Source of the DNA: Amphiscolops sp. MND2022
Taxonomy: Eukaryota
DNA: 64,000 nt
Assembly: GCA_964187785.1 (NCBI GenBank)
Contig: OZ076409.1
Span: forward strand, 41,666,001 to 41,730,000
Reading direction: 5' to 3'
In this document: in pieces, positions 25,479 to 62,525 of the stretch
How positions within the stretch are numbered: the first letter of the stretch is position 1
How the letters are laid out: the number at the start of each line of letters is the position of its first letter
Made by a program: the position numbers and the translations under genes
The notes under the pieces: model-generated
Seen by the model: the letters and a program-made list of their open reading frames with translations, nothing else
Databases searched by the model: none
Told to the model about the DNA's origin: nothing

Positions 25479-27075
25479 CTTCTGCTTTGAAATGGTTTTG
25501 TATTTCGTGTTAGAGGCTTTGTATGCGTTCAAAATCAGGTACTAAATAATTAGTACCTGTGGTAGAAGTGCACAAAAAGTCGACCATGCAGAGTGAGGCT
25601 GACAAAAAATGGTCGGTCTCTTCCTTAGAAGAACAAAACAGGAACGTCTAAAGTCAGCGCTATATCTAAGGCTCAAAAAGTTTTCAAGAATGAAATAAAA
25701 TGCCCAGGACGTATTCAGGAAAAGCTTTGGAAACAGTTTCGAGACACCCAAAGTGTGCCTTTCATTCTCGATTTGGCTGGGAAATCACTTTTTCCCCGAC
25801 TGGGAACAAAAAATTTTTTTGAAAAGACTTCGTACTTTTTTCTTTCGAAAAATATCGCATAGTGCCGAAAAATGAAAAGGGGGGACCCTTTGGGATTTAT
25901 TAACATACATTATGTTGCAAAATATCAAGAAACTCGAAGGGGGACTAGTTTGAGACATTAAAAACTTTTCGATAAATTTCGCACAGTGCCGAAAAAAAAA
26001 TGAGAGGGGGGCCCTTTGGTCTCGTCCGGTTTTGTAGGTTACGTAAAAAATGAAAGGGAGGACCCTTTGCACTAAGTTTGCATTGGCCGGACTTGGCCTG
26101 AGTAGCTTTAGTAGTTTCTGTAAAAATGGGTACATAGACGGTGAGGTCTGTGGTCTGACGAAAAAAATCTAGCCACTGTAATAGGGCTCTTTTCACTAGA
26201 AAAGCGCCGACTAAAAATATATTTTGGTGTAATTGGATTTTTTCAGAATATAACAATTTTTGGTACCAGGTTATGCTATGCAGCTAACAATTTCATTTCT
26301 CAACTGTCGGGGTATTCACAAAATTATCACAAAAAGCAGAGATAATACAAATATTGCACAAATGTAAGAAAAGTGGTTTTCATATTTTATTAGATAATTA
26401 GAGAACATAAGTTTATTGAGAAATAATTAGAAATTCTAGATAAAACAGTCACAAGATTTTGGTGTAAGTATCAGTGTCATGTATAATTACTTCCTTATCA
26501 CACTCTAATCCAAAAGGGCTGCAGAGAAAATTATCTTAGTGTAGCGCATAAAATGAACTTTGAAATTTCTAATTGTAGTAAATTATAAATTGTTCTTGAA
26601 GGATAATTTTGGTTTTTGTAACCTTATGACAAACCTGATATGAGTTGTCACTTTTCTAATTGATATGAGTTATTGCTTGATATAAGTTGTCGTTTTTTAA
26701 ATTTGATATGAGTTGTCGTCTGATATGAGTTATTGGCTATTGTGGGGTCATTTAGAGTCACTATCTAATTTTAAAGAAAAACTTTCTGATTTGGCTATTG
26801 TGGGGTCATTTAGAATCACTATCTACTTTTAAAGGAAAAACTCTTGAGTTTTTTTTTTCAAAAAGCGTCTTGGAACGTTTTGGATATTGTTTGGATATAT
26901 TCAGGAAAATAGTTGAAAAATACAAAAGTTGTGGAAAATTGCTGAAAATTAAAAATATATGGAATTTATTTTGGGTCGTTTTTAGTAGGTGGTCTTTTTT
27001 AGTAAACAAGACGAGAACATCTAAAGTCGGCGCTATATCTAGGGCTCAAAAAGCGCAAAACATTTTTTGAAAAAC
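25281..27075 (+). repeat. Left arm of a long inverted repeat flanking the satellite
   Basis: Reverse complement of 60857-62446, including the non-satellite core 26218-27000. Confidence 0.9.
25632..26217 (-). mobile_element. HINE-like element copy within the left arm
   Basis: 5' end ...AAAGCGCCGACTAAAAA at 26201-26217; decayed 3' end AACAAAACAGGAACGTCTAAAGTCAGCGCT at 25632. Confidence 0.7.
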
Positions 27076-30000
27076 TTTTCTTCCGGAAAATGTCGCATAG
27101 TGCCGAAAAATGTAAAAGGGGGCACTCCTTTGGATTCATTAACATACATTGTGTTGCAAAATATCAAAAACTCGAAGGGGGAACCTTTGGGGACATTAAA
27201 AAATTTTCGAAAAAAGTCGCACAGTGCCGAAAAATGTAAAAAGGGGCACTCTTTTGGATTTATTAACATACATTGTGTTGCAAAATCGAAGGGGGAACCT
27301 TTAGGGACATGAATAAAAATTTCGAAGAAAATTCGCACAGTGCCGAAAAAATCGAAATGGGCCCTTTAGTCTCGTCCGGTTTTCTAGGTTACGTTAAAGT
27401 TAAACACTGAAAGGGGGCCCTTTGCACTGAGTTTGCCTTGTCCAGACCTGGCCTTAGTGGTTTCAGGAGTTTCTCTAAAAAGTGGACCGATCAGAGTGAT
27501 GTCTATGGTCTGAAGAAACAAGACGGGAACGTCTAAAGTCGGCGCTATCTATAAGGTCCAAAAAGCGCTAAGTTTTTAAAAACTGAAAAGAAAATTTTTG
27601 AGGACAAAAAACTATCATTCAGAAAAATCTGACAATGCCGAAAATTGGAAAGGGGGACCCTTTGGGTTTTTTCAATAACCATTCAGTTGCAAAAAAAATA
27701 TAAAAAAAGAAGGGGGCCCTTTGGAGACATTAGTAAATTTTGGGAAACACGTCTCATAGTGCCGCAAAAAATCGAAAGGGGGACCATTTAGTCTCGTCCG
27801 GTTTTGTAGATTACGTTAAAAAAGTAAAAAATGAAAGGGGGACCCTTTGGGGACATTAAAAAATATTCGAAAAAAAGTCGCACAGTGCCGAAAAGTGTAA
27901 AAAGGGGCACTTTTTTGGATTTATTAACATACATTGTGTTGCAAAATATCAAAAACTCGAAGGGGGAACCTTTAGGGACATGAATAAAAATTTCGAAGAA
28001 AATTCGCACAGTGCCGAAAAAATCGAAATGGGCCTTTTAGTCTCGTCCGGTTTTCTAGGTTACGTTAAAGTAAACACTGGAAGGGGGGCCCTTTGCACTG
28101 AGTTTGCGTTGTCTAGACCTGGCCTTAGTGGTTTCAGGAGTTTCTCTAAAAAGTGGACCGATCAGAGTGATGTCTATGGTCTGAAGAAACAAGACGGGAA
28201 CGTCTAAAGTCGGCGCTATCTATAAGGTCCAAAAAGCGCTAAGTTTTTAAAAACTGAAAAGAAAATTTTTGAGGACAAAAAACTATCATTCAGAAAAATC
28301 TGACAATGCCGAAAATTGGAAAGGGGGACCGTTTGGGTTTTTTCAATAACCCTTCAGTTGCAAAAAAAAATATAAAAAAGAAGGGGGCCCTTTGGAGACA
28401 TTAGTAAATTTTGGGAAACACGTCTCATAGTGCCGCAAAAAATCGAAAGGGGGACCATTTAGTCTCGTCCGGTTTTGTAGATTACGTTAAAAAAGTAAAA
28501 AATGAAAGGGGGACCCTTTGGGGACATTAAAAAATATTCGAAAAAAAGTCGCACAGTGCCGAAAAGTGTAAAAAGGGGCACTTTTTTGGATTTATTAACA
28601 TACATTGTGTTGCAAAATATCAAAAACTCGAAGGGGGAACCTTTAGGGACATGAATAAAAATTTCGAAGAAAATTCGCACAGTGCCGAAAAAATCGAAAT
28701 GGGCCTTTTAGTCTCGTCCGGTTTTCTAGGTTACGTTAAAGTAAACACTGGAAGGGGGGCCCTTTGCACTGAGTTTGCGTTGTCTAGACCTGGCCTTAGT
28801 GGTTTCAGGAGTTTCTCTAAAAAGTGGACCGATCAGAGTGATGTCTATGGTCTGAAGAAACAAGACGGGAACGTCTAAAGTCGGCGTTATCTATAAGGTC
28901 CAAAAAGCGCTAAGTTTTTAAAAACTGAAAAGAAAATTTTTGAGGACAAAAAACTATCATTCAAAAAAATCTGACAATGCCGAAAATTGGAAAGGGGGAC
29001 CCTTTGGATTTTTTAAATAACCCTTCAGTTGCAAAAAAAATATAAAAAAAGAAGGGGGCCCTTTGGAGACATTAGTAAATTTTGGGAAACACGTCTCATA
29101 GTGCCGCAAAAAATCGAAAGGGGGACCATTTAGTCTCGTCCGGTTTTGTAGATTACGTTAAAAAAGTAAAAAATGAAAGGGGGACCCTTTGGGGACATTT
29201 AAAAATTTTCGAAAAAAAGTCGCACAGTGCCGAAAAATGTAAAAAGGGGCACTCTTTCGGATTTATTAACATACATTGTGTTTCAAAATATCAAAAACTC
29301 GAAGGGGGAACCTTTAGGGACATGAATAAAAATTTCGAAGAAAATTCGCACAGTGCCGAAAAAATTGAAAGGGGCCCTTTAGTCTCGTCCGGTTTTCTAG
29401 GTTACGTTATAGTAAACACTGAAAGGGGGCCCTTTGCACTGAGTTTGCCTTGTCCAGACCTGGCCTTAGTGGTTTCAGGAGTTTCTCTAAAAAGTGGACC
29501 GATCAGAGTGATGTCTATGGTCGGAAGAAACAAGACGGGAACGTCTAAAGTCGGCGCTATCTATAAGGTCCAAAAAGCGCTAAGTTTTTAAAAACTGAAA
29601 AGAAAATTTTTGAGGACAAAAAACTATCATTCAGAAAAATCTGACAATGCCGAAAATTGGAAAGGGGGACCCTTTGGGTTTTTTCAATAACCCTTCAGTT
29701 GCAAAAAAAATATAAAAAAAAGAAGGGGGCCCTTTGGAGACATTAGTAAATTTTGGGAAACACGTCTCATAGTGCCGCAAGAAATCGAAAGGGGGACCAT
29801 TTAGTCTCGTCCGGTTTTGTAGATTACGTTAAAAAAGTAAAAAATGAAAGGGGGACCCTTTGGGGACATTAAAAAAATTTTTGAAAAAAAGTCGCACAGT
29901 GCCGAAAAATGTAAAAAGGGGCACTCTTTCGGATTTATTAACATACATTGTGTTTCAAAATATCAAAAACTCGAAGGGGGAACCTTTAGGGACATGAATA

Positions 30001-33000
30001 AAAATTTCGAAGAAAATTCGCACAGTGCCGAAACAATTGAAAGGGGCCCTTTAGTCTCGTCCGGTTTTCTAGGTTACGTTATAGTAAACACTGAAAGGGG
30101 GGCCCTTTGCACTGAGTTTGCCTTGTCCAGACCTGGCCTTAGTGGTTTCAGGAGTTTCTCTAAAAAGTGGACCGATCAGAGTGATGTCTATGGTCTGAAG
30201 AAACAAGACGGGAACGTCTAAAGTCGGCGCTATCTATAAGGTCCAAAAAGCGCTAAGTTTTTAAAAACTGGAACGAAAATTTTTGAGGACAAAAAACTAT
30301 CATTCAGAAAAATCTGACAATGCCGAAATATGGAAAGGGGGACCCTTTGGGTTTTTTCAATAACCCTTCAGTTGCAAAAAAAATATAAAAAAAGAAGGGG
30401 GCCCTTTGGAGACATTAGTAAATTTTGGGAAACACGTCTCATAGTGCCGCAAAAAATCGAAAGGGGGACCATTTAGTCTCGTCCGGTTTTGTAGATTACG
30501 TTTAAAAAGTAAAAAATGAAAGGGGGACCCTTTGGGGACATTAAAAAATTTTCGAAAAAAAGTCGCACAGTGCCGAAAAATGTAAAAAGGGGCACTCTTT
30601 CGGATTTATTAACATACATTGTTTCAAAATATCAAAAACTCGAAGGGGGAACCTTTAGGGACATGAATAAAAATTTCGAAGAAAAGTCGCACAGTGCCGA
30701 AAAAATCGAAAGGGGCCCTTTAGTCTCGTCCGGTTTTCCAGGTTACGTTAAAGTAAACACTGAAAGGGGGGCCCTTTGCACTGAGTTTGCCTTGTCCAGA
30801 CCTGGCCTCAGTGGTTTCAGGAGTTTCTCTAAAAAGTGGACCGATCAGAGTGAGGTCTGTGGTCTGAAGAAACAAGACGGGAACGTCTAAAGTCGGCGCT
30901 ATCTATAAGGTCCAAAAAGCGCTAAGTTTTTAAAAACTGAAAAGAAAATTTTTGAGGACAAAAAACTATCATTCAGAAAAATCTGACAATGCCGAAAATT
31001 GGAAAGGGGGACCCTTTGGGTTTTTTCAATAACCATTCAGTTGCAAAAAAAATATAAAAAAAGAAGGGGGCCCTTTGGAGACATTAGTAAATTTTGGGAA
31101 ACACGTCTCATAGTGCCGCAAAAAATCGAAAGGGGGACCATTTAGTCTCGTCCGGTTTTGTAGATTACGTTAAAAAAGTAAAAAATGAAAGGGGGACCCT
31201 TTGGGGACATTAAAAAATATTCGAAAAAAAGTCGCACAGTGCCGAAAAGTGTAAAAAGGGGCACTTTTTTGGATTTATTAACATACATTGTGTTGCAAAA
31301 TATCAAAAACTCGAAGGGGGAACCTTTAGGGACATGAATAAAAATTTCGAAGAAAATTCGCACAGTGCCGAAAAAATCGAAATGGGCCTTTTAGTCTCGT
31401 CCGGTTTTCTAGGTTACGTTAAAGTAAACACTGGAAGGGGGGCCCTTTGCACTGAGTTTGCGTTGTCTAGACCTGGCCTTAGTGGTTTCAGGAGTTTCTC
31501 TAAAAAGTGGACCGATCAGAGTGATGTCTATGGTCTGAAGAAACAAGACGGGAACGTCTAAAGTCGGCGCTATCTATAAGGTCCAAAAAGCGCTAAGTTT
31601 TTAAAAACTGAAAAGAAAATTTTTGAGGACAAAAAACTATCATTCAGAAAAATCTGACAATGCCGAAAATTGGAAAGGGGGACCCTTTGGGTTTTTTCAA
31701 TAACCCTTCAGTTGCAAAAAAATATATAAAAAAGAAGAGGGCCCTTTGGAGACATTAGTAAATTTTGGGAAACACGTCTCATAGTGCCGCAAAAAATCGA
31801 AAGGGGGACCATTTAGTCTCGTCCGGTTTTGTAGATTACGTTAAAAAAGTAAAAAATGAAAGGGGGACCCTTTGGGGACATTAAAAAATTTTCGAAAAAA
31901 AGTCGCACAGTGCCGAAAAATGTAAAAAGGGGCACTCTTTCGGATTTATTAACATACATTGTGTTTCAAAATATCAAAAACTCGAAGGGGGAAGCTTTAG
32001 GGACATGAATAAAAATTTCGAAGAAAATTCGCACAGTGCCGAAAAAATTGAAAGGGGCCCTTTAGTCTCGTCCGGTTTTCTAGGTTACGTTATAGTAAAC
32101 ACTGAAAGGGGGCCCTTTGCACTGAGTTTGCCTTGTCCAGACCTGGCCTCAGTGGTTTCAGGAGTTTCTCTAAAAAGTGGACCGATCAGAGTGAGGTCTG
32201 TGGTCTGAAGAAACAAGACGGAAACGTCTAAAGTCGGGGCTATCTATAAGGTCCAAAACGCTAAGTTTTTAAAAACTGAAAGAAAAATTTTTGAGGACAA
32301 AAAACTATCATTCAGAAAAATCTGACAATGCCGAAAATTGGAAAGGGGGACCCTTTGGGTTTTTTCAATAACCATTCAGTTGCAAAAAAAAATATAAAAA
32401 AAGAAGGGGGCCCTTTGGAGACATTAGTAAATTTTGGGAAACACGTCTCATAGTGCCGCAAAAAATCGAAAGGGGGACCATTTAGTCTCGTCCGGTTTTG
32501 TAGATTACGTTAAAAAAGTGAAAAATGAAAGGGGGACCCTTTGGGGACATTAAAAAATATTCGAAAAAAAGTCGCACAGTGCCGAAAAGTGTAAAAAGGG
32601 GCACTTTTTTGGATTTATTAACATACATTGTGTTGCAAAATATCAAAAACTCGAAGGGGGAACCTTTAGGGACATGAATAAAAATTTCGAAGAAAATTCG
32701 CACAGTGCCGAAAAAATCGAAATGGGCCTTTTAGTCTCGTCCGGTTTTCTAGGTTACGTTAAAGTAAACACTGGAAGGGGGGCCCTTTGCACTGAGTTTG
32801 CGTTGTCTAGACCTGGCCTTAGTGGTTTCAGGAGTTTCTCTAAAAAGTGGACCGATCAGAGTGATGTCTATGGTCTGAAGAAACAAGACGGGAACGTCTA
32901 AAGTCGGCGCTATCTATAAGGTCCAAAAAGCGCTAAGTTTTTAAAAACTGAAAAGAAAATTTTTGAGGACAAAAAACTATCATTCAGAAAAATCTGACAA

Positions 33001-36000
33001 TGCCGAAAATTGGAAAGGGGGACCCTTTGGGTTTTTTCAATAACCCTTCAGTTGCAAAAAAAAATATAAAAAAAGAAGGGGGCCCTTTGGAGACATTAGT
33101 AAATTTTGGGAAACACGTCTCATAGTGCCGCAAAAAATCGAAAGGGGGACCATTTAGTCTCGTCCGGTTTTGTAGATTACGTTAAAAAAGTAAAAAATGA
33201 AAGGGGGACCCTTTGGGGACATTAAAAAATTTTCGAAAAAAAGTCGCACAGTGCCGAAAAATGTAAAAAGGGGCACTCTTTCGGATTTATTAACATACAT
33301 TGTGTTTCAAAATATCAAAAACTCGAAGGGGGAACCTTTAGGGACATGAATAAAAATTTCGAAGAAAATTCGCACAGTGCCGAAAAAATTGAAAGGGGCC
33401 CTTTAGTCTCGTCCGGTTTTCTAGGTTACGTTATAGTAAACACTGAAAGGGGGCCCTTTGCACTGAGTTTGCCTTGTCCAGACCTGGCCTTAGTGGTTTC
33501 AGGAGTTTCTCTAAAAAGTGGACCGATCAGAGTGATGTCTATGGTCGGAAGAAACAAGACGGGAACGTCTAAAGTCGGCGCTATCTATAAGGTCCAAAAA
33601 GCGCTAAGTTTTTAAAAACTGAAAAGAAAATTTTTGAGGACAAAAAACTATCATTCAGAAAAATCTGACAATGCCGAAAATTGGAAAGGGGGACCCTTTG
33701 GGTTTTTTCAATAACCCTTCAGTTGCAAAAAAAATATAAAAAAAAGAAGGGGGCCCTTTGGAGACATTAGTAAATTTTGGGAAACACGTCTCATAGTGCC
33801 GCAAGAAATCGAAAGGGGGACCATTTAGTCTCGTCCGGTTTTGTAGATTACGTTAAAAAAGTAAAAAATGAAAGGGGGACCCTTTGGGGACATTAAAAAA
33901 ATTTTTGAAAAAAAGTCGCACAGTGCCGAAAAATGTAAAAAGGGGCACTCTTTCGGATTTATTAACATACATTGTGTTTCAAAATATCAAAAACTCGAAG
34001 GGGGAACCTTTAGGGACATGAATAAAAATTTCGAAGAAAATTCGCACAGTGCCGAAACAATTGAAAGGGGCCCTTTAGTCTCGTCCGGTTTTCTAGGTTA
34101 CGTTATAGTAAACACTGAAAGGGGGGCCCTTTGCACTGAGTTTGCCTTGTCCAGACCTGGCCTTAGTGGTTTCAGGAGTTTCTCTAAAAAGTGGACCGAT
34201 CAGAGTGATGTCTATGGTCTGAAGAAACAAGACGGGAACGTCTAAAGTCGGCGCTATCAATAAGGTCCAAAAAGCGCTAAGTTTTTAAAAACTGGAACGA
34301 AAATTTTTGAGGACAAAAAACTATCATTCAGAAAAATCTGACAATGCCGAAATATGGAAAGGGGGACCCTTTGGGTTTTTTCAATAACCCTTCAGTTGCA
34401 AAAAAAATATAAAAAAAGAAGGGGGCCCTTTGGAGACATTAGTAAATTTTGGGAAACACGTCTCATAGTGCCGCAAAAAATCGAAAGGGGGACCATTTAG
34501 TCTCGTCCGGTTTTGTAGATTACGTTTAAAAAGTAAAAAATGAAAGGGGGACCCTTTGGGGACATTAAAAAATTTTCGAAAAAAAGTCGCACAGTGCCGA
34601 AAAATGTAAAAAGGGGCACTCTTTCGGATTTATTAACATACATTGTTTCAAAATATCAAAAACTCGAAGGGGGAACCTTTAGGGACATGAATAAAAATTT
34701 CGAAGAAAAGTCGCACAGTGCCGAAAAAATCGAAAGGGGCCCTTTAGTCTCGTCCGGTTTTCCAGGTTACGTTAAAGTAAACACTGAAAGGGGGGCCCTT
34801 TGCACTGAGTTTGCCTTGTCCAGACCTGGCCTCAGTGGTTTCAGGAGTTTCTCTAAAAAGTGGACCGATCAGAGTGAGGTCTGTGGTCTGAAGAAACAAG
34901 ACGGAAACGTCTAAAGTCGGCGCTATCTATAAGGTCCAAAACGCTAAGTTTTTAAAAACTGAAAGGAAAATTTTTGAGGACAAAAAACTATCATTCAGAA
35001 AAATCTGACAATGCCGAAAATTGGAAAGGGGGACCCTTTGGGTTTTTTAAATAACTATTCAGTTGCAAAAAATTTTTTTAAAAAAGGGGGGCCCTTTGGA
35101 GACTTTAGTAAATTTTGGGGAAAACGTCTCATATTGCTGAAAAAAATCGAAAGGGGGACCCTTTGGGGACATTAAAAAATATTCGAAAAAAAGTCGCACA
35201 GTGCCGAAAAATGTAAAAAGGGCACTCTTTTGGATTTATTAACATACATTGTTTCAAAATATCAAAAACTCGAAGGGGGAACCTTTAGGGACATGAATAA
35301 TAATTTCGAAGAAAAGTCGCACAGTGCCGAAAAAATCGAAAGGGGCCCTTTAGTCTCGTCCGGTTTTCCAGGTTACGTTAAAGTAAACACTGAAAGGGGG
35401 GCCCTTTGCACTGAGTTTGCCTTGTCCAGACCTGGCCTCAGTGGTTTCAGGAGTTTCTCTAAAAAGTGGACCGATCAGAGTGAGGTCTGTGGTCTGAAGA
35501 AACAAGACGGAAACGTCTAAAGTCGGCGCTATCTATAAGGTCCAAAACGCTAAGTTTTTAAAAACTGAAAGGAAAATTTTTGAGGACAAAAAACTATCAT
35601 TCAGAAAAATCTGACAATGCCGAAAATTGGAAAGGGGGACCCTTTGGGTTTTTTAAATAACTATTCAGTTGCAAAAATTTTTTTAAAAAAAGGGGGGCCC
35701 TTTGGAGACTTTAGTAAATTTTGGGGAAAACGTCTCATAGTGCTGAAAAAAATCGAAAGGGGGACCCTTTGGGGACATTAAAAAATATTCGAAAAAAAGT
35801 CGCACAGTGCCGAAAAATGTAAAAAGGGCACTCTTTTGGATTTATTAACATACATTGTGTTGCAAAATATCAAAAACTCGAAGGGGGAACCTTTAGGGAC
35901 ATGAATAAAAATTTCGAAGAAAATTCGCACAGTGCCGAAAAAATTGAAAGGGGCCCTTTAGTCTCGTCCGGTTTTCTAGGTTACGTTATAGTAAACACTG

Positions 36001-48000: not shown

Positions 48001-51000
48001 GCCCTTTGCACTGAGTTTGCCTTGTCCATACCTGGCCTTAGTGGTTTCAGGAGTTTCTCTGAAAAGTGGACCGATCAGAGTGAGGTCTGTGGTCTAAAGA
48101 AACAAGACGGGAACCTCTAAAGTCGGCGCTATCTATAAGGTCCAAAAAGCGCTAAGTTTTTAAAAACTGAAAGGAAAATTTTTGAGGACAAAAAACTATC
48201 ATTCAGAAAAATCTGACAATGCCGAAAACTGGAAAGGGGGACCCTTTGGGTTTTTTAAATAACTATTCAGTTGCAAAAAATTTTAAAAAAGGGGGGCCCT
48301 TTGGAGACTTTAGTAAATTTTGGGAAAAACGTCTCATAGTGCTGAAAAAAATCGAAAGGGGGGCCATTTAGTCTCGTCCGGTTTTGTAGATTACGTTAAA
48401 AAAGTAAAAAATGAAAGGGGGACCCTTTGGGGACATTAAAAAATTTTCGAAAAAAAGTCGCACAGTGCCGAAAAATGTAAAAAGGGGCACTCTTTTGGAT
48501 TTATTAACATACATTGTGTTGCAAAATATCAAAAACTCGAAGGGGGAACCTTTAGGGACATGAATAAAAATTTCGAAGAAAATTCGCACAGTGCCGAAAA
48601 AATCGAAAGGGGCCCTTTAGTCTCGTCCGGTTTTCTAGGTTACGTTAAAGTAAACACTGAAAGGGGGGCCCTTTGCACTTAGTTTGCCTTGTCCAGACCT
48701 GGCCTTAGTGGTTTCAGGAGTTTCTCTAAAAAGTGGACCGATCAGAGTGAGGTCTGTGGTCTGAAGAAACAAGACGGGAACGTCTAAAGTCGGCGCTATC
48801 TATAAGGTCCAAAAAGCGCTAAGTTTTTAAAAACTGAAAAGAAAATTTTTGAGGACAAAAAACTATCATTCAGAAAAATCTGACAATGCCGAAAATTGGA
48901 AAGGGGGACCCTTTGATTTTTTCAATAACCATTCAGTTGCAAAAAAAATTTTAAAAAGAAGGGGGCCCTTTGGAGATATTAGTGAATTTTGAGAAAAACG
49001 TCTCATAGTGCCGCAAAAAATCGAAAGGGGGACCATTTAGTCTCGTCCGGTTTTGTAGATTACGTTAAAAAAGTAAAAAATGAAAGGGGGACCCTTTGGG
49101 GACATTAAAAAATTTTCGAAAAAAAAGTCGCACAGTGCCGAAAAATGTAAAAAGGGGCACTCTTTTGGATTTATTAACATACATTGTGTTGCAAAATATC
49201 AAAAACTCGAAGGGGGAACCTTTAGGGACATGAATAAAAATTTCGAAGAAAATTCGCACAGTGCCGAAAAAATCGAAAGGGGCCCTTTAGTCTCGTCCGG
49301 TTTTCTAGGTTACGTTAAAGTAAACACTGAAAGGGGGGCCCTTTGCACTGAGTTTGCCTTGTCCAGACCTGGCCTTAGTGGTTTCAGGAGTTTCTCTAAA
49401 AAGTGGACCGATCAGAGTGAGGTCTGTGGTCTGAAGAAACAAGACGGGAACGTCTAAAGTCGGCGCTATCTATAAGGTCCAAAAAGCGCTAAGTTTTTAA
49501 AAACTGAAAGGAAAATTTTTGAGGACAAAAAACTATCATTCAGAAAAATCTGACAATGCCGAAAACTGGAAAGGGGGACCCTTTGGGTTTTTTAAATAAC
49601 TATTCAGTTGCAAAAAATTTAAAAAAGGGGGGCCCTTTGGAGACTTTAGTAAATTTTGGGAAAAACGTCTCATAGTGCTGAAAAAAATCGAAAGGGGGGC
49701 CATTTAGTCTCGTCCGGTTTTGTAGATTACGTTAAAAAAGTAAAAAATGAAAGGGGGACCCTTTGGGGACATTAAAAAATTTTCGAAAAAAAGTCGCACA
49801 GTGCCGAAAAATGTAAAAAGGGGCACTCTTTTGGATTTATTAACATACATTGTGTTGCAAAATATCAAAAACTCGAAGGGGGAACCTTTAGGGACATGAA
49901 TAAAAATTTCGAAGAAAATTCGCACAGTGCCGAAAAAATCGAAAGGGGCCCTTTAGTCTCGTCCGGTTTTCTAGGTTACGTTAAAGTAAACACTGAAAGG
50001 GGGGCCCTTTGCACTGAGTTTGCCTTGTCCAGACCTGGCCTTAGTGGTTTCAGGAGTTTCTCTAAAAAGTGGACCGATCAGAGTGAGGTCTGTGGTCTGA
50101 AGAAACAAGACGGGAACGTCTAAAGTCGGCGCTATCTATAAGGTCCAAAAAGCGCTAAGTTTTTAAAAACTGAAAAGAAAATTTTTGAGGACAAAAAACT
50201 ATCATTCAGAAAAATCTGACAATGCCGAAAATTGGAAAGGGGGACCCTTTGATTTTTTCAATAACCATTCAGTTGCAAAAAAAAATTTTAAAAAGAAGGG
50301 GGCCCTTTGGAGATATTAGTGAATTTTGAGAAAAACGTCTCATAGTGCCGCAAAAAATCGAAAGGGGGACCATTTAGTCTCGTCCGGTTTTGTAGATTAC
50401 GTTAAAAAAGTAAAAAATGAAAGGGGGACCCTTTGGGGACATTAAAAAATTTTCGAAAAAAAAGTCGCACAGTGCCGAAAAATGTAAAAAGGGGCACTCT
50501 TTTGGATTTATTAACATACATTGTGTTGCAAAATATCAAAAACTAGAAGGGGGAACCTTTAGGGACATGAATAAAAATTTCGAAGAAAATTCGCACAGTG
50601 CCGAAAAAATCGAAAGGGGCCCTTTAGTCTCGTCCGGTTTTCTAGGTTACGTTAAAGTAAACACTGAAAGGGGGGCCCTTTGCACTGAGTTTGCCTTGTC
50701 CAGACCTGGCCTTAGTGGTTTCAGGAGTTTCTCTAAAAAGTGGACCGATCAGAGTGAGGTCTGTGGTCTGAAGAAACAAGACGGGAACGTCTAAAGTCGG
50801 CGCTATCTATAAGGTCCAAAAAGCGCTAAGTTTTTAAAAACTGAAAGGAAAATTTTTGAGGACAAAAAACTATCATTCAGAAAAATCTGACAATGCCGAA
50901 AACTGGAAAGCGGGACCCTTTGGGTTTTTTAAATAACTATTCAGTTGCAAAAAATTTAAAAAAGGGGGGCCCTTTGGAGATATTAGTGAATTTTGAGAAA

Positions 51001-54000
51001 AACGTCTCATAGTGCCGCAAAAAATCGAAAGGGGGACCATTTAGTCTCGTCCGGTTTTGTAGATTACGTTAAAAAAGTAAAAAATGAAAGGGGGACCCTT
51101 TGGGGACATTAAAAAATTTTCGAAAAAAAAGTCGCACAGTGCCGAAAAATGTAAAAAGGGGCACTCTTTTGGATTTATTAACATACATTGTGTTGCAAAA
51201 TATCAAAAACTAGAAGGGGGAACCTTTAGGGACATGAATAAAAATTTCGAAGAAAATTCGCACAGTGCCGAAAAAATCGAAAGGGGCCCTTTAGTCTCGT
51301 CCGGTTTTCTAGGTTACGTTAAAGTAAACACTGAAAGGGGGCCCTTTGCACTGAGTTTGCCTTGTCCAGACCTGGCCTTAGTGGTTTCAGGAGTTTCTCT
51401 AAAAAGTGGACCGATCAGAGTGAGGTCTGTGGTCTGAAGAAACAAGACGGGAACGTCTAAAGTCGGCGCTATCTATAAGGTCCAAAAAGCGCTAAGTTTT
51501 TAAAAACTGAAAAGAAAATTTTTGAGGACAAAAAACTATCATTCAGAAAAATCTGACAATGCCGAAAATTGGAAAGGGGGACCCTTTGATTTTTTCAATA
51601 ACCATTCAGTTGCAAAAAAAAATTTTAAAAAGAAGGGGGCCCTTTGGAGATATTAGTGAATTTTGAGAAAAACGTCTCATAGTGCCGCAAAAAATCGAAA
51701 GGGGGACCATTTAGTCTCGTCCGGTTTTGTAGATTACGTTAAAAAAGTAAAAAATGAAAGGGGGACCCTTTGGGGACATTAAAAAATTTTCGAAAAAAAA
51801 GTCGCACAGTGCCGAAAAATGTAAAAAGGGGCACTCTTTTGGATTTATTAACATACATTGTGTTGCAAAATATCAAAAACTAGAAGGGGGAACCTTTAGG
51901 GACATGAATAAAAATTTCGAAGAAAATTCGCACAGTGCCGAAAAAATCGAAAGGGGCCCTTTAGTCTCGTCCGGTTTTCTAGGTTACGTTAAAGTAAACA
52001 CTGAAAGGGGGGCCCTTTGCACTGAGTTTGCCTTGTCCAGACCTGGCCTTAGTGGTTTCAGGAGTTTCTCTAAAAAGTGGACCGATCAGAGTGAGGTCTG
52101 TGGTCTGAAGAAACAAGACGGGAACGTCTAAAGTCGGCGCTATCTATAAGGTCCAAAAAGCGCTAAGTTTTTAAAAACTGAAAAGAAAATTTTTGAGGAC
52201 AAAAAACTATCATTCAGAAAAATCTGACAATGCCGAAAATTGGAAAGGGGGACCCTTTGATTTTTTCAATAACCATTCAGTTGCAAAAAAAAATTTTAAA
52301 AAGAAGGGGGCCCTTTGGAGATATTAGTGAATTTTGAGAAAAACGTCTCATAGTGCCGCAAAAAATCGAAAGGGGGACCATTTAGTCTCGTCCGGTTTTG
52401 TAGATTACGTTAAAAAAGTAAAAAATGAAAGGGGGACCCTTTGGGGACATTAAAAAATTTTCGAAAAAAAAGTCGCACAGTGCCGAAAAATGTAAAAAGG
52501 GGCACTCTTTTGGATTTATTAACATACATTGTGTTGCAAAATATCAAAAACTAGAAGGGGGAACCTTTAGGGACATGAATAAAAATTTCGAAGAAAATTC
52601 GCACAGTGCCGAAAAAATCGAAAGGGGCCCTTTAGTCTCGTCCGGTTTTCTAGGTTACGTTAAAGTAAACACTGAAAGGGGGGCCCTTTGCACTGAGTTT
52701 GCCTTGTCCAGACCTGGCCTTAGTGGTTTCAGGAGTTTCTCTAAAAAGTGGACCGATCAGAGTGAGGTCTGTGGTCTGAAGAAACAAGACGGGAACGTCT
52801 AAAGTCGGCGCTATCTATAAGGTCCAAAAAGCGCTAAGTTTTTAAAAACTGAAAGGAAAATTTTTGAGGACAAAAAACTATCATTCAGAAAAATCTGACA
52901 ATGCCGAAAACTGGAAAGCGGGACCCTTTGGGTTTTTTAAATAACTATTCAGTTGCAAAAAATTTAAAAGAGGGGGGGCCCTTTGGAGATATTAGTGAAT
53001 TTTGAGAAAAACGTCTCATAGTGCCGCAAAAAATCGAAAGGGGGACCATTTAGTCTCGTCCGGTTTTGTAGATTACGTTAAAAAAGTAAAAAATGAAAGG
53101 GGGACCCTTTGGGGACATTAAAAAATTTTCGAAAAAAAAGTCGCACAGTGCCGAAAAATGTAAAAAGGGGAACTCTTTTGGATTTATTAACATACATTGT
53201 GTTGCAAAATATCAAAAACTCGAAGGGGGAACCTTTAGGGACATGAATAAAAATTTCGAAGAAAATTCGCACAGTGCCGAAAAAAATCGAAAGGGGCCCT
53301 TTAGTCTCGTCCGGTTTTCTAGGTTACGTTAAAGTAAACACTGAAAGGGGGGCCCTTTGCACTGAGTTTGCCTTGTCCAGACCTGGCCTTAGTGGTTTCA
53401 GGAGTTTCTCTAAAAAGTGGACCGATCAGAGTGAGGTCTGTGGTCTGAAGAAACAAGACGGGAACGTCTAAAGTCGGCGCTATCTTTAAGGTCCAAAAAA
53501 TGCTAAGTTTTTAAAAACTGAAAAGAAAGTTTTTGAGGACAAAAAACTATCATTCAGAAAAATCTGACAATGCCGAAAATTGGAAAGGGGGACCCTTTGG
53601 TTTTCTCAATAACCATTCAGTTGCAAAAAAAATTTTAAAAAAGAAGGGGGCCCTTTGGAGATGTTAGTGAATTTTGAGAAAAACGTCTCATAGTGCCGCA
53701 AAAAATCGAAAGGGGGACCATCTAGTCTCGTCCGGTTTTGTAGATTACGTTAAAAAAGTAAAAAATGAAAGGGGGACCCTTTGGGGACATTAAAAAATTT
53801 TCGAAAAAAAGTCGCACAGTGCCGAAAAATGTAAAAAGGGGCACTCTTTTGGATTTATTAACATACATTGTGTTGCAAAATATCAAAAACTCGAAGGGGG
53901 AACCTTTAGGGACATGAATAAAAATTTCGAAGAAAATTCGCACAGTGTCGAAAAAATTGAAAGGGGCCCTTTAGTCTCGTCCGGTTTTCTAGGTTACGTT

Positions 54001-57000
54001 AAAGTAAATACTGAAAGGGGGGCCCTTTGCACTGAGTTTGCCTTGTCCATACCTGGCCTTAGTGGTTTCAGGAGTTTCTCTGAAAAGTGGACCTATCAGA
54101 ATGAGGTCTGTGGTCTGAAGAAACAAGACGGGAACGTCTAAAGTCGGCGCTATCTATAAGGTCCAAAAAGCGCTAAGTTTTTAAAAACTGAAAAGAAAAT
54201 TTTTGAGGACAAAAAACTATCATTCAGAAAAATCTGACAATGCCGAAAATTGGAAAGGGGGACTCTTTGGTTTTTCAATAACCATTCAGTTGCAAAAAAA
54301 AAAATTAAAAAAGAAGGGGGCCCTTTGGAGACACAATAGTAAATTTTGGGGAAAACGTCTCAGTGCTGAAAAAAATCGAAAGGGGGACCATTTAGTCTCG
54401 TCCGGTTTTGTAGATTCCGTTAAAAAAGTAAAAAAATGAAAGGGGGACCCTTTGGGGACATTAAAAAATTTTCGAAAAAAAGTCGCACAGTGCCGAAAAA
54501 TGTAAAAAGGGGCACTCTTTTGGATTTATTAACATACATTGTGTTGCAAAATATCAAAAACTCGAAGGAGGAACCTTTAGGGACATGAATAAAAATTTCG
54601 AAGAAAATTCGCACAGTGTCGAAAAAATCGAAAGAGGCCCTTTAGTCTCGTCCGGTTTTCTAGGTTACGTTAAAGTAAACACTGAAAGGGGGCCCTTTGC
54701 ACTGAGTTTGCCTTGTCCATACCTGGCCTTAGTGGTTTCAGGAGTTTCTCTAAAAAGTGGACCGATCAGAGTGAGGTCTGTAGTCTGAAGAAACAAGACG
54801 GGAACGTCTAAAGTCGGCGCTATCTATAAGGTCCAAAAAGCGCTGAGTTTTTAAAAACTGAAAAAATTTTTGAGGACAAAAAACTATCATTCAGAAAAAT
54901 CTGACAATGCCGAAAATTGGAAAGGGGGACCCTTTGGTTTTTTCAATAACCATTCAGTTGCAAAAAAAAATTTAAAAAAGAAGGGGGCCCTTTGGAGATA
55001 TTAGTGAATTTTGAGAAAAACGTCTCATAGTGCCGCAAAAAATCGAAAGGGGGACCATTTAGTCTCGTCCCGTTTTGTAGATTACGTTAAAAAAGTAAAA
55101 AATGAAAGGGGAACCCTTTGGGACATTAAAAAATTTTCGAAAAAAAGTCGCAGAGTGCCGAAAAATGTAAAAAGGGGCACTCTTTTGGATTTATTAACAT
55201 ACATTGTGTTGCAAAATATCAAAAACTCGAAGGGGGAACCTTTAGGGACATGAATAAAAATTTCGAAGAAAATTCGCACAGTGTCGAAAAAATCGAAAGG
55301 GGCCCTTTAGTCTCGTCCGGTTTTCTAGGTTACGTTAGAATAAACACTGAAAGGGGGCCCTTTGCACTGAGTTTGCCTTGTCCATACCTGGCCTTAGTGG
55401 TTTCAGGAGTTTCTCTAAAAAGTGGACCGATCAGAGTGAGGTCTGTAGTCTGAAGAAACAAGACGGGAACGTCTAAAGTCGGCGCTATCTATAAGGTCCA
55501 AAAAGCGCTAAGTTTTTAAAAACTGAAAAGAAAATTTTTGAGGACAAAAAACTATCATTTAGAAAAATCTGACAATGCCGAAAATTGGAAAGGGGGACCC
55601 TTTGGTTTTTTCAATAACCATTCAGTTGCAAAAAAAAATTTTAAAAAAGGGGCCCTTTGGAGATATTAGTGAATTTTGAGAAAAACGTCTCATAGTGCCG
55701 CAAAAAATCGAAAGGGGGACCATTTAGTCTCGTCCCGTTTTGTAGATTACGTTAAAAAAGTAAAAAATGAAAGGGGAACCCTTTGGGGACATTAAAAAAT
55801 TTTCGAAAAAAAGTCGCACAGTGCCGAAAAATGTAAAAAGGGGCACTCTTTTGGATTTATTAACATACATTGTGTTGCAAAATATCAAAAACTCGAAGGG
55901 GGAACCTTTAGGGACATGAATAAAAATTTCGAAGAAAATTCGCACAGTGTCGAAAAAATTGAAAGGGGCCCTTTAGTCTCGTCCGGTTTTCTAGGTTACG
56001 TTAAAGTAAATACTGAAAGGGGGGCCCTTTGCACTGAGTTTGCCTTGTCCATACCTGGCCTTAGTGGTTTCAGGAGTTTCTCTGAAAAGTGGACCGATCA
56101 GAGTGAGGTCTGTGGTCTGAAGAAACAAGACGGGAACGTCTAAAGTCGGCGCTATCTATAAGGTCCAAAAAGCGCTAAGTTTTTAAAAACTGAAAAGAAA
56201 ATTTTTGAGGACAAAAAACTATCATTCAGAAAAATCTGACAATGCCGAAAATTGGAAAGGGGGACCCTTTGGTTTTTTCAATAACCATTCAGTTGCAAAA
56301 AAAATTTAAAAAAGAAGGGGGCCCTTTGGAGATATTAGTGAATTTTGAGAAAAACGTCTCATAGTGCCGCAAAAAATCGAAAGGGGGACCATTTAGTCTC
56401 GTCCCGTTTTGTAGATTACGTTAAAAAAGTAAAAAATGAAAGGGGAACCCTTTGGGACATTAAAAAATTTTCGAAAAAAAGTCGCACAGTGCCGAAAAAT
56501 GTAAAAAGGGGCACTCTTTTGGATTTATTAACATACATTGTGTTGCAAAATATCAAAAACTCGAAGGGGGAACCTTTAGGGACATGAATAAAAATTTCGA
56601 AGAAAATTCGCACAGTGTCGAAAAAATCGAAAGGGGCCCTTTAGTCTCGTCCGGTTTTCTAGGTTACGTTAGAATAAACACTGAAAGGGGGGCCCTTTGC
56701 ACTGAGTTTGCCTTGTCCATACCTGGCCTTAGTGGTTTCAGGAGTTTCTCTAAAAAGTGGACCGATCAGAGTGAGGTCTGTAGTCTGAAGAAACAAGACG
56801 GGAACGTCTAAAGTCGGCGCTATCTATAAGGTCCAAAAAGCGCTAAGTTTTTAAAAACTGAAAAGAAAATTTTTGAGGACAAAAAACTATCATTTAGAAA
56901 AATCTGACAATGCCGAAAATTGGAAAGGGGGACCCTTTGGTTTTTTCAATAACCATTCAGTTGCAAAAAAAATTTTAAAAAAAGGGGGCCCTTTGGAGAT

Positions 57001-60000
57001 ATTAGTGAATTTTGAGAAAAACGTCTCATAGTGCCGCAAAAAATCGAAAGGGGGACCATTTAGTCTCGTCCCGTTTTGTAGATTACGTTAAAAAAGTAAA
57101 AAATGAAAGGGGAACCCTTTGGGGACATTAAAAAATTTTCGAAAAAAAGTCGCACAGTGCCGAAAAATGTAAAAAGGGGCACTCTTTTGGATTTATTAAC
57201 ATACATTGTGTTGCAAAATATCAAAAACTCGAAGGGGGAACCTTTAGGGACATGAATAAAAATTTCGAAGAGAATTCGCACAGTGTCGAAAAAATTGAAA
57301 GGGGCCCTTTAGTCTCGTCCGGTTTTCTAGGTTACGTTAAAGTAAATACTGAAAGGGGGCCCTTTGCACTGAGTTTGCCTTGTCCATACCTGGCCTTAGT
57401 GGTTTCAGGAGTTTCTCTGAAAAGTGGACCGATCAGAGTGAGGTCTGTGGTCTGAAGAAACAAGACGGGAACGTCTAAAGTCGGCGCTATCTGTAAGGTC
57501 CAAAAAGCGCTAAGTTTTTAAAAACTGAAAAGAAAATTTTTGAGGACAAAAAACTATCATTCAGAAAAATCTGACAATGCCGAAAATTGGAAAGGGGGAC
57601 CCTTTGGTTTTTTCAATAACCATTCAGTTGCAAAAAAAATTTAAAAAAGAAGGGGGCCCTTTGGAGACACAATAGTAAATTTTGGGAAAAACGTCTCAGT
57701 GCTGAAAAAAATTGAAAGGGGGACCATTTAGTCTCGTCCGGTTTTGTAGATTACGTTAAAAAAGTAAAAAATGAAAGGGGGACCCTTTGGGGACATTAAA
57801 AAATTTTCGAAAAAAAGTCGCACAGTTCCGAAAAATGTAAAAAGGGGCACTCTTTTGGATTTATTAACATACATTGTGTTGCAAACTATCAAAAACTCGA
57901 AGGGGGAACCTTTAGGGACATGAATAAAAATTTCGAAGAAAATTCGCACAGTGTCGAAAAAATCGAAAGGGGCCCTTTAGTCTCGTCTGGTTTTCTAGGT
58001 TACGTTAAAGTAAACACTGAAGGGGGGGCCCTTTGCACTGAGTTTGCCTTGTCCATACCTGGCCTTAGTGGTTTCAGGAGTTTCTCTAAAAAGTGGACCG
58101 ATCAGAGTGAGGTCTGTAGTCTGAAGAAACAAGACGGGAACGTCTAAAGTCGGCGCTATCTATAAGGTCCAAAAAGCGCTAAGTTTTTAAAAACTGAAAA
58201 GAAAATTTTTGAGGACAAAAAACTATCATTCAGAAAAATCTGACAATGCCGAAAATTGGAAAGGGGGACCCTTTGGTTTTTTCAATAACCATTCAGTTGC
58301 AAAAAAAATTTAAAAAAGAAGGGGGCCCTTTGGAGACACAATAGTAAATTTTGGGAAAAACGTCTCAGTGCTGAAAAAAATTGAAAGGGGGACCATTTAG
58401 TCTCGTCCGGTTTTGTAGATTACGTTAAAAAAGTAAAAAATGAAAGGGGGACCCTTTGGGGACATTAAAAAATTTTCGAAAAAAAGTCGCACAGTTCCGA
58501 AAAATGTAAAAAGGGGCACTCTTTTGGATTTATTAACATACATTGTGTTGCAAACTATCAAAAACTCGAAGGGGGAACCTTTAGGGACATGAATAAAAAT
58601 TTCGAAGAAAATTCGCACAGTGTCGAAAAAATCGAAAGGGGCCCTTTAGTCTCGTCTGGTTTTCTAGGTTACGTTAAAGTAAACACTGAAGGGGGGGCCC
58701 TTTGCACTGAGTTTGCCTTGTCCATACCTGGCCTTAGTGGTTTCAGGAGTTTCTCTAAAAAGTGGACCGATCAGAGTGAGGTCTGTAGTCTGAAGAAACA
58801 AGACGGGAACGTCTAAAGTCGGCGCTATCTATAAGGTCCAAAAAGCGCTAAGTTTTTAAAAACTGAAAAGAAAATTTTTGAGGACAAAAAACTATCATTC
58901 AGAAAAATCTGGCAATGCCGAAAATTGGAAAGGGGGACCCTTTGGTTTTTTCAATAACCATTCAGTTGCAAAAAAAAATTTAAAAAAGAAGGGGGCCCTT
59001 TGGAGATATTAGTGAATTTTGAGAAAAACGTCTCATAGTGCCGCAAAAAATCGAAAGGGGGACCATTTAGTCTCGTCCGATTTTGTAGATTACGTTAAAA
59101 AAGTAAAAAATGAAAGGGGGACCCTTTGGGGACATTCGAAAAATTTTCGAAAAGTCGCACAGTGCCGAAAAATGTAAAAAGGAGCACTCTTTTGGATTTA
59201 TCAACATACATTGTGTTGCAAACTATCAAAAACTCGAAGGGAGAACCTTTAGGGACATGAATAAAAATTTCGAAGAAAATTCGCACAGTGTCGAAAAAAT
59301 CGAAAGGGGCCCTTTAGTCTCGTCTGGTTTTCTAGGTTACGTTAAAGTAAACACTGAAGGGGGGGCCCTTTGCACTGAGTTTGCCTTGTCCATACCTGGC
59401 CTTAGTGGTTTCAGGAGTTTCTCTAAAAAGTGGACCGATCAGAGTGAGGTCTGTAGTCTGAAGAAACAAGACGGGAACGTCTAAAGTCGGCGCTATCTAT
59501 AAGGTCCAAAAAGCGCTAAGTTTTTAAAAACTGAAAAAAATTTTGAGGACAAAAAACTATCATTCAGAAAAATCTGACAATGCCGAAAATTGGAAAGGGG
59601 GACCCTTTGGTTTTTTCAATAACCATTCAGTTGCTAAAAAAAATTTTAAAAAAGAAGGGGGCCCTTTGGAGATATTAGTGAATTTTGAAAAAAACGTCTC
59701 ATAGTGCCGCAAAAAATCGAAAGGGGGACCATTTAGTCTCGTCCGGTTTTGTAGATTACGTTAAAAAAGTAAAAAATGAAACGGGGACCCTTTGGGGACA
59801 TTGAAAAATTTTCGAAAAAAAGTCGCAAATTGCCGAAAAATGTAAAAAGGGGCACTCTTTTGGATTTATTAACATACATTGTGTTGCAAAATATCAAAAA
59901 CTCGAAGGGGGAACCTTAAGAGACATGAATAAAAATTTCGAAGAAAATTCGCACAGTGTCGAAAAAATCGAAAGGGGCCCTTTAGTCTCGTCCGGTTTTC

Positions 60001-60610
60001 TAGGTTACGTTAAAGTAAACACTGAAAGGGGGGCCCTTTGCACTGAAATTGCCTTGTCCAGACCTGGCCTTAGTGGTTTCAGGAGTTTCTCTAAAAATTG
60101 GACCGATCAGAGTGAGGTCTGTGGTCTGACGAAAAACAAGACGGGAACGTCTAAAGTCGGCGCTATATCTAAGGCTCAAAAAGCGCAAAACATTTTTTTT
60201 GCGAAAAACTTGAAATTGACAAACTTTTTTTTTCGGAAAATGTCGCATAGTGCCGAAAAATGTAGAAGCTTTTGGGTTTTATTAACATATATTCTGTTGC
60301 AAATATCAACTCGAAAGGGGGACTCTTTTGAGACATCGAAAACTTTCGAAAAAAATTTCGCACAGTGCCGAAAAAAATTGACAGGGGGCCCATTTGTCTC
60401 GTCCGGTTTTGTAGGTTACGTTTAAAAAGTAGAAAATGAAAGGGGACCCTTTTGCACTAATTTCCGCTGACCGGACTTGGCCTTATTGTCTTAGTAGTTT
60501 CTTTTGTAGGAAAAGTGGACCAATCAGAGTGAGATTGTAGTCTGACGAAAAAAAAGCTAGCCACTGTAATAGTCGGGCTCCCTTCATTAGAAAAACGCCG
60601 ATTAAAAAAA
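27004..60610 (-). repeat. ~33.6-kb satellite of about 50 ~670-bp monomers derived from a Helentron-type non-autonomous element
   Basis: AAACAAGACGG(G/A)AACGTCTAAAGTCGGCGCTAT recurs 51 times by my count (27004, 27516, 28187 ... 59464, 60134). Most monomers are 664-674 bp, with ~607, 512 and 742-bp variants. The ORF track repeats with the same period. Confidence 0.97.
60134..60610 (-). mobile_element. Terminal array unit that is a complete HINE-like element (the only 5' end in the array)
   Basis: Ends GCTAGCCACTGTAATAGTCGGGCTC...AAACGCCGATTAAAAAAA (5' subTIR plus inverted repeat), which is absent from all internal monomers. Confidence 0.75.
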
Positions 60611-60856
60611 ACAAGCCGGTAACGGCCCAAGTCGGCGCCATATCTAAGGCTCAAAAATAACAAAAGGACTTCAAAGTGTCAAAGTATTCTCTTCTAAAGC
60701 ACCCGCACGAGATAAAAATTGATTTCAATGAAATAAAAAATTTTTTGAAGTTCCCGGTAAGTCACATAGTGCCGAAAAATGTAAAAGGAGGGACCCTTTG
60801 GGATTTTTTGAACGTCCATTCTGTTACGCCCAAAATATCAAAAAAAATGATTTCAA
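60609..60856 (-). mobile_element. Truncated HINE of a second subfamily (GCCG hairpin type)
   Basis: ACAAGCCGGTAACGGCCCAAGTCGGCGCCATATCTAAGGCTCAAAAATAACAAAAGGACTTCAAAGTGTC matches the reverse complement of 3600-3674. Confidence 0.7.
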
Positions 60857-62446: not shown

Positions 62447-62525
62447 GTAGTTAATTTCTGTAAAAAGTGGACCTTTCAGTATGAGTCTGTGGTCTGAAAA
62501 AAAGGTCAGTGTAAGAGTGGGACAT

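What the first reader, a model, noticed from the sequence alone, without database searches (positions are those of the whole stretch)
27004..60610. A 33.6-kb satellite that is a Helentron-type concatemer: one 5' end, about 51 3' ends
Seen: read on the minus strand, the array opens with a single 5' terminus (T-run, subTIR, partial inverted repeat; 60555-60610). Every monomer then ends in subTIR AGCGCCGACT + hairpin AGACG-TTCC-CGTCT + TGTTT. Each 3' end joins directly to the element's own internal T-run about 60 bp inside the 5' end (CCGTCTTGTTT/TTCGTCAGAC at 60124-60143). A complete solo copy of the family sits at 3219-3674. Known: this subTIR/hairpin/TT layout defines Helentrons and DINE-1/HINE elements, and these are known to seed satellites, usually from internal repeats. 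Inference: here nearly the whole element is the monomer. It arose either by rolling-circle concatemerisation or by self-insertion into its own T-run followed by unequal crossover.
Basis: partly seen in the sequence, partly recalled or inferred. Interest (0 to 1): 0.78.

Follow-up and report, generated by a model that had tools for sequence, protein, structure and literature searches.

The report
Satellite born from nested Helentron elements
This is a real, single-locus 33.6-kb tandem array built from pieces of two small rolling-circle transposons, most likely formed when one jumped into the other and the junction was then copied again and again by unequal recombination; it is a variant of a known route from transposon to satellite DNA.

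Summary
The array is real: 51 units at 27004-60608, one 5' module, 51 3' ends. The family is Helentron/HINE. Solo copies sit in T-runs, and an 11-kb autonomous Rep-helicase element with the same end motifs exists in near-identical copies.

'Concatemer of nearly the whole element' does not hold. The monomer is a chimera: the 5' half of subfamily X joined to the 3' part of subfamily Y. The array ends in an intact X body, and the head element is a third subfamily. The 3'-end-to-T-run junction is common: 469 sites outside the array. 17 of 25 sampled sites show an outer 5' module directly upstream, as nested self-insertion predicts. Monomer variants are 87% shared (star null 25%) and positionally clustered, which fits stepwise unequal exchange. 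An inverted duplication truncates the head, so 'one 5' end' is not diagnostic.

Known precedents: transposon dimers seeding satellites, and Helitron2 self-insertion. The newer point is a roughly 8-fold or greater excess of insertion into the family's own T-run. No reads were available to check the assembly.

The parts
27004..60608 (-). Tandem array of 51 HINE-derived units, found at this locus only
   Evidence: array-specific 30-mer 38 of 38 genome matches lie here
27516..60133 (-). 49 core monomers of about 670 bp: X body 1 to about 345 joined to Y body about 103 to end, crossover in the shared motif CCAAAGGGTCCCCCTT; each ends subTIR, hairpin, TT
27004..27515 (-). Tail unit (512 bp): X-type body with its own X-type 3' part; likely the original outer (host) element
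   Evidence: near-identical to the monomer up to about 350, then diverges; the same body (L175) is best match for monomer 1-100 and for tail 401-480
60134..60608 (-). Head element Z (475 bp), complete, third subfamily, decayed 5' module at 60555-60605
   Evidence: 74% to consensus; at most 85% to sampled solos
60610..60860 (-). Element E0: GC-type 3' end abutting the head's T-run; 5' part cut off at the inverted-duplication breakpoint
25275..27073 (-). Left arm of local inverted duplication (tail 3' end, spacer with a dispersed repeat, further HINEs)
60858..62452 (+). Right arm of local inverted duplication; 11 mismatches in 660 bp in the spacer, about 4-8% in HINE parts
   Evidence: homology does not extend further into 20 kb of flank on either side
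3222..3674 (+). Solo HINE of a different subfamily with the same end motifs
   Evidence: its 5' hairpin folds with z -2.9
19614..25481 (-). Second tandem array, 4 units of about 1.48 kb, each with a related HINE 3' end plus flank

Best explanation
The array is a single-locus satellite whose ~670-bp unit is the 5' half of one non-autonomous Helentron (X) fused to the 3' part of another (Y), and it likely arose when Y inserted into the T-run behind X's 5' hairpin and the segment spanning that nested junction was then likely expanded by repeated unequal exchange. SHOWN: family membership; an autonomous partner; T-run targeting; nested a-a-b-b stacks (two 5' modules, then two bodies) at many loci; a chimeric unit with its breakpoint in a shared internal motif; an intact X body at the tail; shared, position-clustered variants. 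INFERRED: the founding nested pair (aX aY Y | X); the first duplication between out-of-register copies of the ~20-bp motif, giving Y[1-103] {Y[103-end] | X[1-345]}n X[345-end]; and the loss of the original head. That loss could come from further insertions (Z, E0) at the same T-run, a deletion between near-identical 3' ends, and truncation by the inverted duplication.
For: Chimera: monomer 341-450 and 451-620 match 437-bp Y bodies at 94-97% and 89-92%, while those bodies match monomer 1-100 at only about 78-85%. Monomer 1-100 and tail 401-480 both match the same X-type body best, among 187 bodies. The alignment shows the switch point. Junction: 504 genome matches, 35 of them in the array. In the first 25 loci, 12 have a full doubled 5' module and 17 have a 5'-module tail before an inner 5' end; L143-L146 are one locus with four stacked modules further up (L158). 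Adjacent bodies were 72-90% identical in all 14 pairs computed, so they are different subfamilies. 617 doubled 5' modules of one type. Autonomous elements are nested the same way. Expansion: 443 of 510 variant cells are shared (87%; star null mean 25%, max 33%); Mantel rho 0.35, 0 of 2000 permutations as high; a 3-unit block repeats at lag 6. The signature is single-locus.
Against: The predicted head (aX aY plus a whole Y) is not there; Z and E0 are there instead, so extra steps must be assumed. 3 of 25 junction loci show a single 5' module and 1 shows none (L133, L135, L147, L154), so one-5'/two-3' structures can arise otherwise, for example by 3'-end bypass. Shared variants show how the array was remodelled, not how the first copies arose. 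X is matched only at about 80-89% by sampled elements, so the X subfamily call is loose. The Y-type matches include 20 loci that were fetched by similarity to the monomer.
Confidence: 0.72

Rival explanations
1. Same nested origin, but the first burst came from a 670-bp circle looped out between the two internal motifs. The circle carries a 3' end and no 5' module; it would roll (host machinery or the Helentron Rep) and re-integrate in place, with unequal exchange later.
For: The unit is exactly what such a circle would hold. Circular intermediates are reported for Helitron2 (PMC5148889, passages). A similar circle model is described for plant Helitrons (PMC12628747, passages).
Against: No copy of the array signature lies elsewhere in the genome (38 of 38 here). 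Variants are hierarchical, not star-like. The plant model yields many 5' ends and one 3' end, the opposite pattern.
Confidence: 0.14
2. True rolling-circle concatemer of one Helentron-type element, inserted as a block.
For: One 5' module and 51 3' ends. Near-identical full-length tandems with a 2-T junction exist in this genome (L220/L221 99%, L222 98%, L239 99%), so concatemer-like products may occur.
Against: Those tandems keep the 5' module in every unit; the array does not. The head is 74% identical to the monomers. The unit is a chimera and the tail has another subfamily's 3' part. Among computed head-to-tail pairs most are heterologous: 4 of 24 rows of the 2-T class reach 97% or more.
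Confidence: 0.06
3. The array length or the inverted arms are an assembly artefact.
For: No reads could be checked. A 200-N gap lies at 9363-9562, beside a 98.7% duplicated 1.4-kb segment. Some monomers are identical.
Against: Monomers carry many linked, position-clustered variants. The edges are distinct old elements. The arms differ by indels and 1.7-8% substitutions, and homology stops at 62452.
Confidence: 0.08

Closest known systems
Helentrons and HINE/DINE-1 elements (Thomas et al. 2014, PMC4067079; passages read); HLE2 of HELIANO (PMC11417382; passages and section 18)
   Same: SubTIRs, partial 5' inverted repeat nested with the subTIR, 3' stem-loop, T-rich target, central repeats, Rep/PIF1/endonuclease partner, DUF6570 marker. 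HELIANO also reports an HLE2 with two 5' ends in direct repeat (HelenXT233).
   Different: The subTIR here is about 10 bp (reported 12-16). The passages read do not describe a satellite whose unit spans a nested junction.
Self-insertion of FoHeli Helitron2 elements giving multiple 5' termini (Chellapan et al. 2016, PMC5148889, passages; PMC13342296, passages)
   Same: Stacked short 5' modules, explained by an element inserting into another copy.
   Different: There the product is many 5' ends with one 3' end. Here both halves of the nest are seen at hundreds of loci, and the 3' side was amplified 50-fold. No enrichment figure appears in the passages read.
TE double insertion seeding satellites (McGurk and Barbash 2018, PMC5932611; passages)
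   Same: Target-site preference makes dimers that expand by unequal exchange; tail-to-internal junctions may reflect nesting; expanded arrays often lack intact termini.
   Different: Their cases are other TE classes (0 occurrences of 'helitron' in the text). Here the unit is a chimera of two subfamilies.
Cg_HINE central repeats and DINE-TR1 satellites (PMC7492417, passages; review PMC12628747, passages)
   Same: HINE-derived tandem DNA.
   Different: Those amplify the central 100-500-bp repeats between the ends; this unit includes the 3' terminus.
Plant centromeric Helitron tandem arrays (Xiong et al. 2016; not read, seen only as summarised in PMC12628747)
   Same: Long arrays of truncated rolling-circle elements.
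   Different: Many 5' ends and one 3' end, canonical Helitrons, explained by rolling circle; the reverse polarity here.

Membership tests
Helentron/HINE (HLE2) | Subterminal inverted repeats, 5' copy near the end, 3' copy before a stem-loop | tested here: met
   AGTCGGCGC / GCGCCGACT in solo and autonomous copies; length about 10 bp, a little shorter than reported
Helentron/HINE (HLE2) | 3' stem-loop | tested here: met
   5-bp stem is the predicted fold but z -1.0; paired variants across subfamilies
Helentron/HINE (HLE2) | Partial inverted repeat of the 5' subTIR (DINE-1 type) | tested here: met
   CCGACT about 25 bp inside; solo 5' end folds with z -2.9, the decayed array head does not
Helentron/HINE (HLE2) | Insertion between T and T in T-rich targets | tested here: met
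   48 and 50 of 51 solos have T at flank positions -2 and -1; reconstructed target runs are 5 T or more in all but 2
Helentron/HINE (HLE2) | No target-site duplication | tested here: inconclusive
   Paralogous empty sites for L114, L129, L139 show only 2 extra T; longer TSDs are not seen, but a TT duplication cannot be told from two element-borne T
Helentron/HINE (HLE2) | Autonomous partner with HUH Rep and PIF1 helicase and the same ends | tested here: met
   2304-aa open frame, PF14214 1.5e-17, PF05970 1.8e-25; HxH and YxxxY motifs; copies 95-99.5% whose alignments stop at the motifs
Helentron/HINE (HLE2) | DUF6570 (HLE2 marker) | tested here: met
   PF20209 3.2e-13, above cut-off
Helentron/HINE (HLE2) | C-terminal AP endonuclease | tested here: inconclusive
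   PF03372 E 4.9e-4, 20.4 bits, below cut-off 24.5, at the C-terminus
Rolling-circle concatemer of one element | Units equal the whole element joined 3' end to 5' end | tested here: not met
   50 of 51 units lack the 5' module; the unit is chimeric
Rolling-circle concatemer of one element | Copies identical at birth, star-like divergence | tested here: not met
   87% shared variant cells against 25% null; later remodelling could hide an early burst
Rolling-circle concatemer of one element | Circular intermediate | not testable with these tools
   No runs were listed
Satellite DNA (multi-locus or centromeric) | Abundant, at several loci or at the centromere | tested here: not met
   Signature found at one locus only; centromere position unknown

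The most novel reading that the evidence does not exclude
This Helentron family targets itself. The transposase, bound to the CCGACT arm of a resident copy's 5' hairpin (which lies 14-15 bases before a T-run, like the subTIR before the true 3' end), steers new insertions into that T-run. The genome would then fill with Russian-doll stacks, each a ready seed for a junction-spanning satellite; this array is one that grew. Basis: 469 of about 11,370 3' ends of one type outside the array join a body start (4.1%), against at most 0.5% expected from T-run availability (20 module runs of 3,759 runs of 5 T or more in 400 kb), and solo targets show no strong taste for long runs.
Probability: 0.35. Interest if true: 0.6.

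Novelty: new variant of a known kind. Interest (0 to 1): 0.38.

Why it matters
It is an unusually legible case of a satellite's birth: parent subfamilies, nested junction, crossover motif, old edge elements and an apparently intact autonomous partner are all in one genome. It warns that 'one 5' end, many 3' ends' is not a rolling-circle signature for Helentrons. The intact 2304-aa element with near-identical copies makes two open points testable: Helentron target choice, and which end the T nucleotides belong to. No host function is implied.

Tried and rejected
Sequencing runs: none was listed, so array length, eccDNA and assembly are unchecked; this is no evidence either way.

Earlier scan notes: nothing shown.

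Arms as the TIRs of a foldback element or a dispersed composite: rejected. The spacer has one 98% copy, the other arm; all other hits to its main part are 75-79% and cover only that part.

Arms as a large haplotype fold-back: not supported; homology stops at 62452 across 20 kb of flank each side.

Other arrays of this monomer: none for the exact 30-mer. The DNA search scored only 39 of 8,863 candidates, so a diverged solo or array of this body is not excluded.

Partner search: of 10 long-ORF Rep loci first fetched, 1 showed both end motifs around the ORF; four with 2350-2603-aa ORFs showed none.

Long-T-run preference as the cause of nesting: not supported; 3 solo targets of about 51 are 8 T or more, against 198 of 3,759 genomic runs.

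In 400 kb of fixed-interval sample, 0 of 9 strict 5' modules were nested and 1 of 22 3' ends joined a body start. That is compatible with about 4%, but the sample is too small to confirm enrichment alone.

Literature: six searches listed no paper that, by title or abstract start, describes a HINE satellite whose unit spans a nested junction. The library lacks most subscription papers; Xiong 2016 and Dias 2015 were not read, and no supplements were opened.
Full report
OBSERVATION. Splitting window 26900-60700 at the 3' subTIR gives 51 units from 27004 to 60608, plus one more 3' end at 60610 that belongs to an abutting element. The array holds one 5' module (60605), 49 exact AGCGCCGACT and 38 exact hairpins. 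Core monomers m02-m50 are 663-674 bp (44), 606-608 bp (4) and 742 bp (1), with mean divergence 3.0%, range 0-6.2%. The head element is 74% and the tail 88% identical to the monomer consensus. The solo at 3222-3674 shares the end motifs but only 74-78% in local pieces. An array-specific 30-mer matches 38 places in the 1.07-Gb genome, all in this array.

FAMILY. The 28-mer 3' end occurs 5,245 times and its 17-mer core 11,407 times, with reversed controls at 0. In the first 30 places, 29 have a 5' motif upstream. Among 51 solo-like elements (312-842 bp), flank positions -2 and -1 are T in 48 and 50, and the 3' flank is free. Paralogous empty sites for L114, L129 and L139 show a T-run of 4-6 and a net gain of two T; others found in that call were too diverged to read. 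This matches HINE behaviour as described in PMC4067079 (passages), including the ambiguity over terminal T; a TT duplication cannot be excluded.

AUTONOMOUS PARTNER. PF14214 gave 152 matches. Of 10 long-ORF loci fetched, L036/L037 has a 5' motif at 3812, a 2304-aa open frame and a 3' end at 14757. The frame holds DUF6570, Helitron_like_N and PIF1 above cut-off, and a weak C-terminal Exo_endo_phos below cut-off; HxH and YxxxY motifs are present. Of 8 further loci, 4 are copies at 95-99.5%; three alignments end at the 3' motif, and the fourth continues into a similar nested host. The other 4 are 68-75% relatives; two of them (L062/63, L066/67, broken frames) end in the same terminal 30 bases as the array, each seen as a single copy. 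DUF6570 is HELIANO's HLE2 marker (PMC11417382, passages).

THE JUNCTION IS A NESTING SCAR. The 3' end followed within 10 bases by a body start occurs 504 times, 35 of them in the array; a 5'-module tail followed by a new 5' end occurs 617 times for one module type. In the first 25 junction loci, 12 show a full doubled 5' module and 17 a module tail before an inner 5' end. Four rows (L143-146) are one duplicated locus with four stacked modules further up; three have one module and one has none. In all 14 pairs where both bodies could be compared they were 72-90% identical, so they are different subfamilies, not copies of one template. Autonomous elements are both hosts and guests of such nests. 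Self-insertion giving multiple 5' ends is in print for Fusarium Helitron2 (PMC5148889; PMC13342296).

ENRICHMENT. Outside the array, 469 of about 11,370 such 3' ends join a body start (4.1%). In 40 fixed-interval 10-kb stretches there are 3,759 runs of 5 T or more and 28 loosely defined 5' modules, 20 with 5 T or more, so the expectation is at most 0.5%. That is about 8-fold or more. Solo targets are not biased to long runs. Caveats: composites that move as a unit inflate counts; insertions in repeats survive better; local hopping was not tested; the fixed-interval sample alone (1 of 22 and 0 of 9) is too small to confirm it. That the transposase is guided by the resident CCGACT arm is inference.

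THE UNIT IS A CHIMERA. Sliding BLAST splits the monomer into 1 to about 330 and about 340 to 671, with different best partners. Against 187 bodies, monomer 341-450 and 451-620 match 437-bp Y bodies at positions about 103-216 and 217-389 (94-97% and 89-92%), while 1-100 matches an X-type body best. That same body is also the best match for the tail's private part 401-480. The alignment shows monomer and tail near-identical up to the motif CCAAAGG(G/T)TCCCCCTT; there the monomer jumps to Y and the tail continues as X. This is what a tandem duplication across a nested Y|X junction gives. Caveats: 20 of the loci were fetched by similarity to the monomer, and only 39 of 8,863 candidates were scored there.

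EXPANSION. On 584 clean columns, 443 of 510 variant cells are shared between monomers (87%; star null mean 25%, max 33% of 300). Distance rises with position (rho 0.35, 0 of 2000 permutations), and units 4-6 recur at lag 6. This fits stepwise unequal exchange or slippage. It does not exclude an early circle-driven burst that was later overwritten.

INTERNAL CONTROL FOR CONCATEMERS. Head-to-tail junctions exist: 120 with three or more T and 109 with two T under a looser pattern. Most computed pairs are heterologous. In the 2-T class 4 of 24 computed rows reach 97% or more (L220/L221, a trimer; L222; L239), and all keep the 5' module. The array looks unlike them.

THE HEAD. Upstream of the head lies E0, whose 5' part stops at about 60860. 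There an inverted copy of the tail's last ~70 bases and ~1.7 kb of its flank begins (60858-62452 against 27073-25275). The spacer differs by 11 of 660 bases and has no other close copy; homology does not extend further. Any outer 5' modules would have been lost here, so the single 5' end says little about mechanism. How the inverted duplication formed is unexplained.

COMPARISON AND VERDICT. Membership in Helentron/HINE is met on six features and inconclusive on two. The array fails the two testable features of a rolling-circle concatemer. It works like the double-insertion route of McGurk and Barbash (PMC5932611, passages), with nesting in place of side-by-side insertion, and differs from HINE satellites made of central repeats (PMC7492417; PMC12628747). 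Six searches listed no description of this exact route, within the library's limits. Reads could not be checked. Verdict: new variant of a known kind, interest 0.38; the self-targeting reading has probability about 0.35 and would deserve about 0.6.

Noticed in passing
window 19614-25481: Second tandem array, 4 units of about 1.48 kb at 94-98%, each with a related HINE 3' end and flank; it adjoins the left inverted arm.
   Followed up: partly
window 25275-27073 and 60858-62452: Local inverted duplication enclosing the array; the spacer differs by 1.7% but the HINE parts by about 4-8%, unexplained.
   Followed up: partly
window about 26360-26730 and its copy near 61070-61430: Part of a dispersed repeat; copies elsewhere show an inverted 70-95-bp end match, MITE-like.
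   Followed up: partly
window 15470-17146 (+): 558-aa open frame with a BED zinc finger (Pfam 2.3e-5); hAT-like transposase by recalled resemblance, not tested.
   Followed up: partly
window 11769-13496 (-): Fragmented reverse-transcriptase frames; RVT_1 1.2e-12 for 11769-12164; likely a decayed LINE.
   Followed up: partly
window 4857-6273 and 7830-9246; gap 9363-9562: 98.7% direct duplication of 1.4 kb next to a 200-N gap; possible assembly overlap.
   Followed up: no
L220/L221 (G000:C1:41.27 Mb), L222, L239: Near-identical full-length head-to-tail HINE tandems with an exact 2-T junction: candidate true rolling-circle products, or same-subfamily double insertions.
   Followed up: partly
G000:C1:5126616-5133217: Four nested-HINE units at a period of about 1.92 kb, each with a doubled 5' module: another small array.
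   Followed up: no
L058/L059 and L060/L061: Autonomous copies with internal tandem duplications of about 3.4 kb and 2 kb.
   Followed up: no
G000:C1 about 73.5-76.5 Mb; L044-L051: Many 2350-2603-aa Rep-like frames with weak PF14214 scores, clustered on C1, without this family's ends: a separate Helitron-like family.
   Followed up: no
L129, L019: Elements inserted in the opposite orientation into the A-run of another copy's 5' hairpin loop.
   Followed up: no
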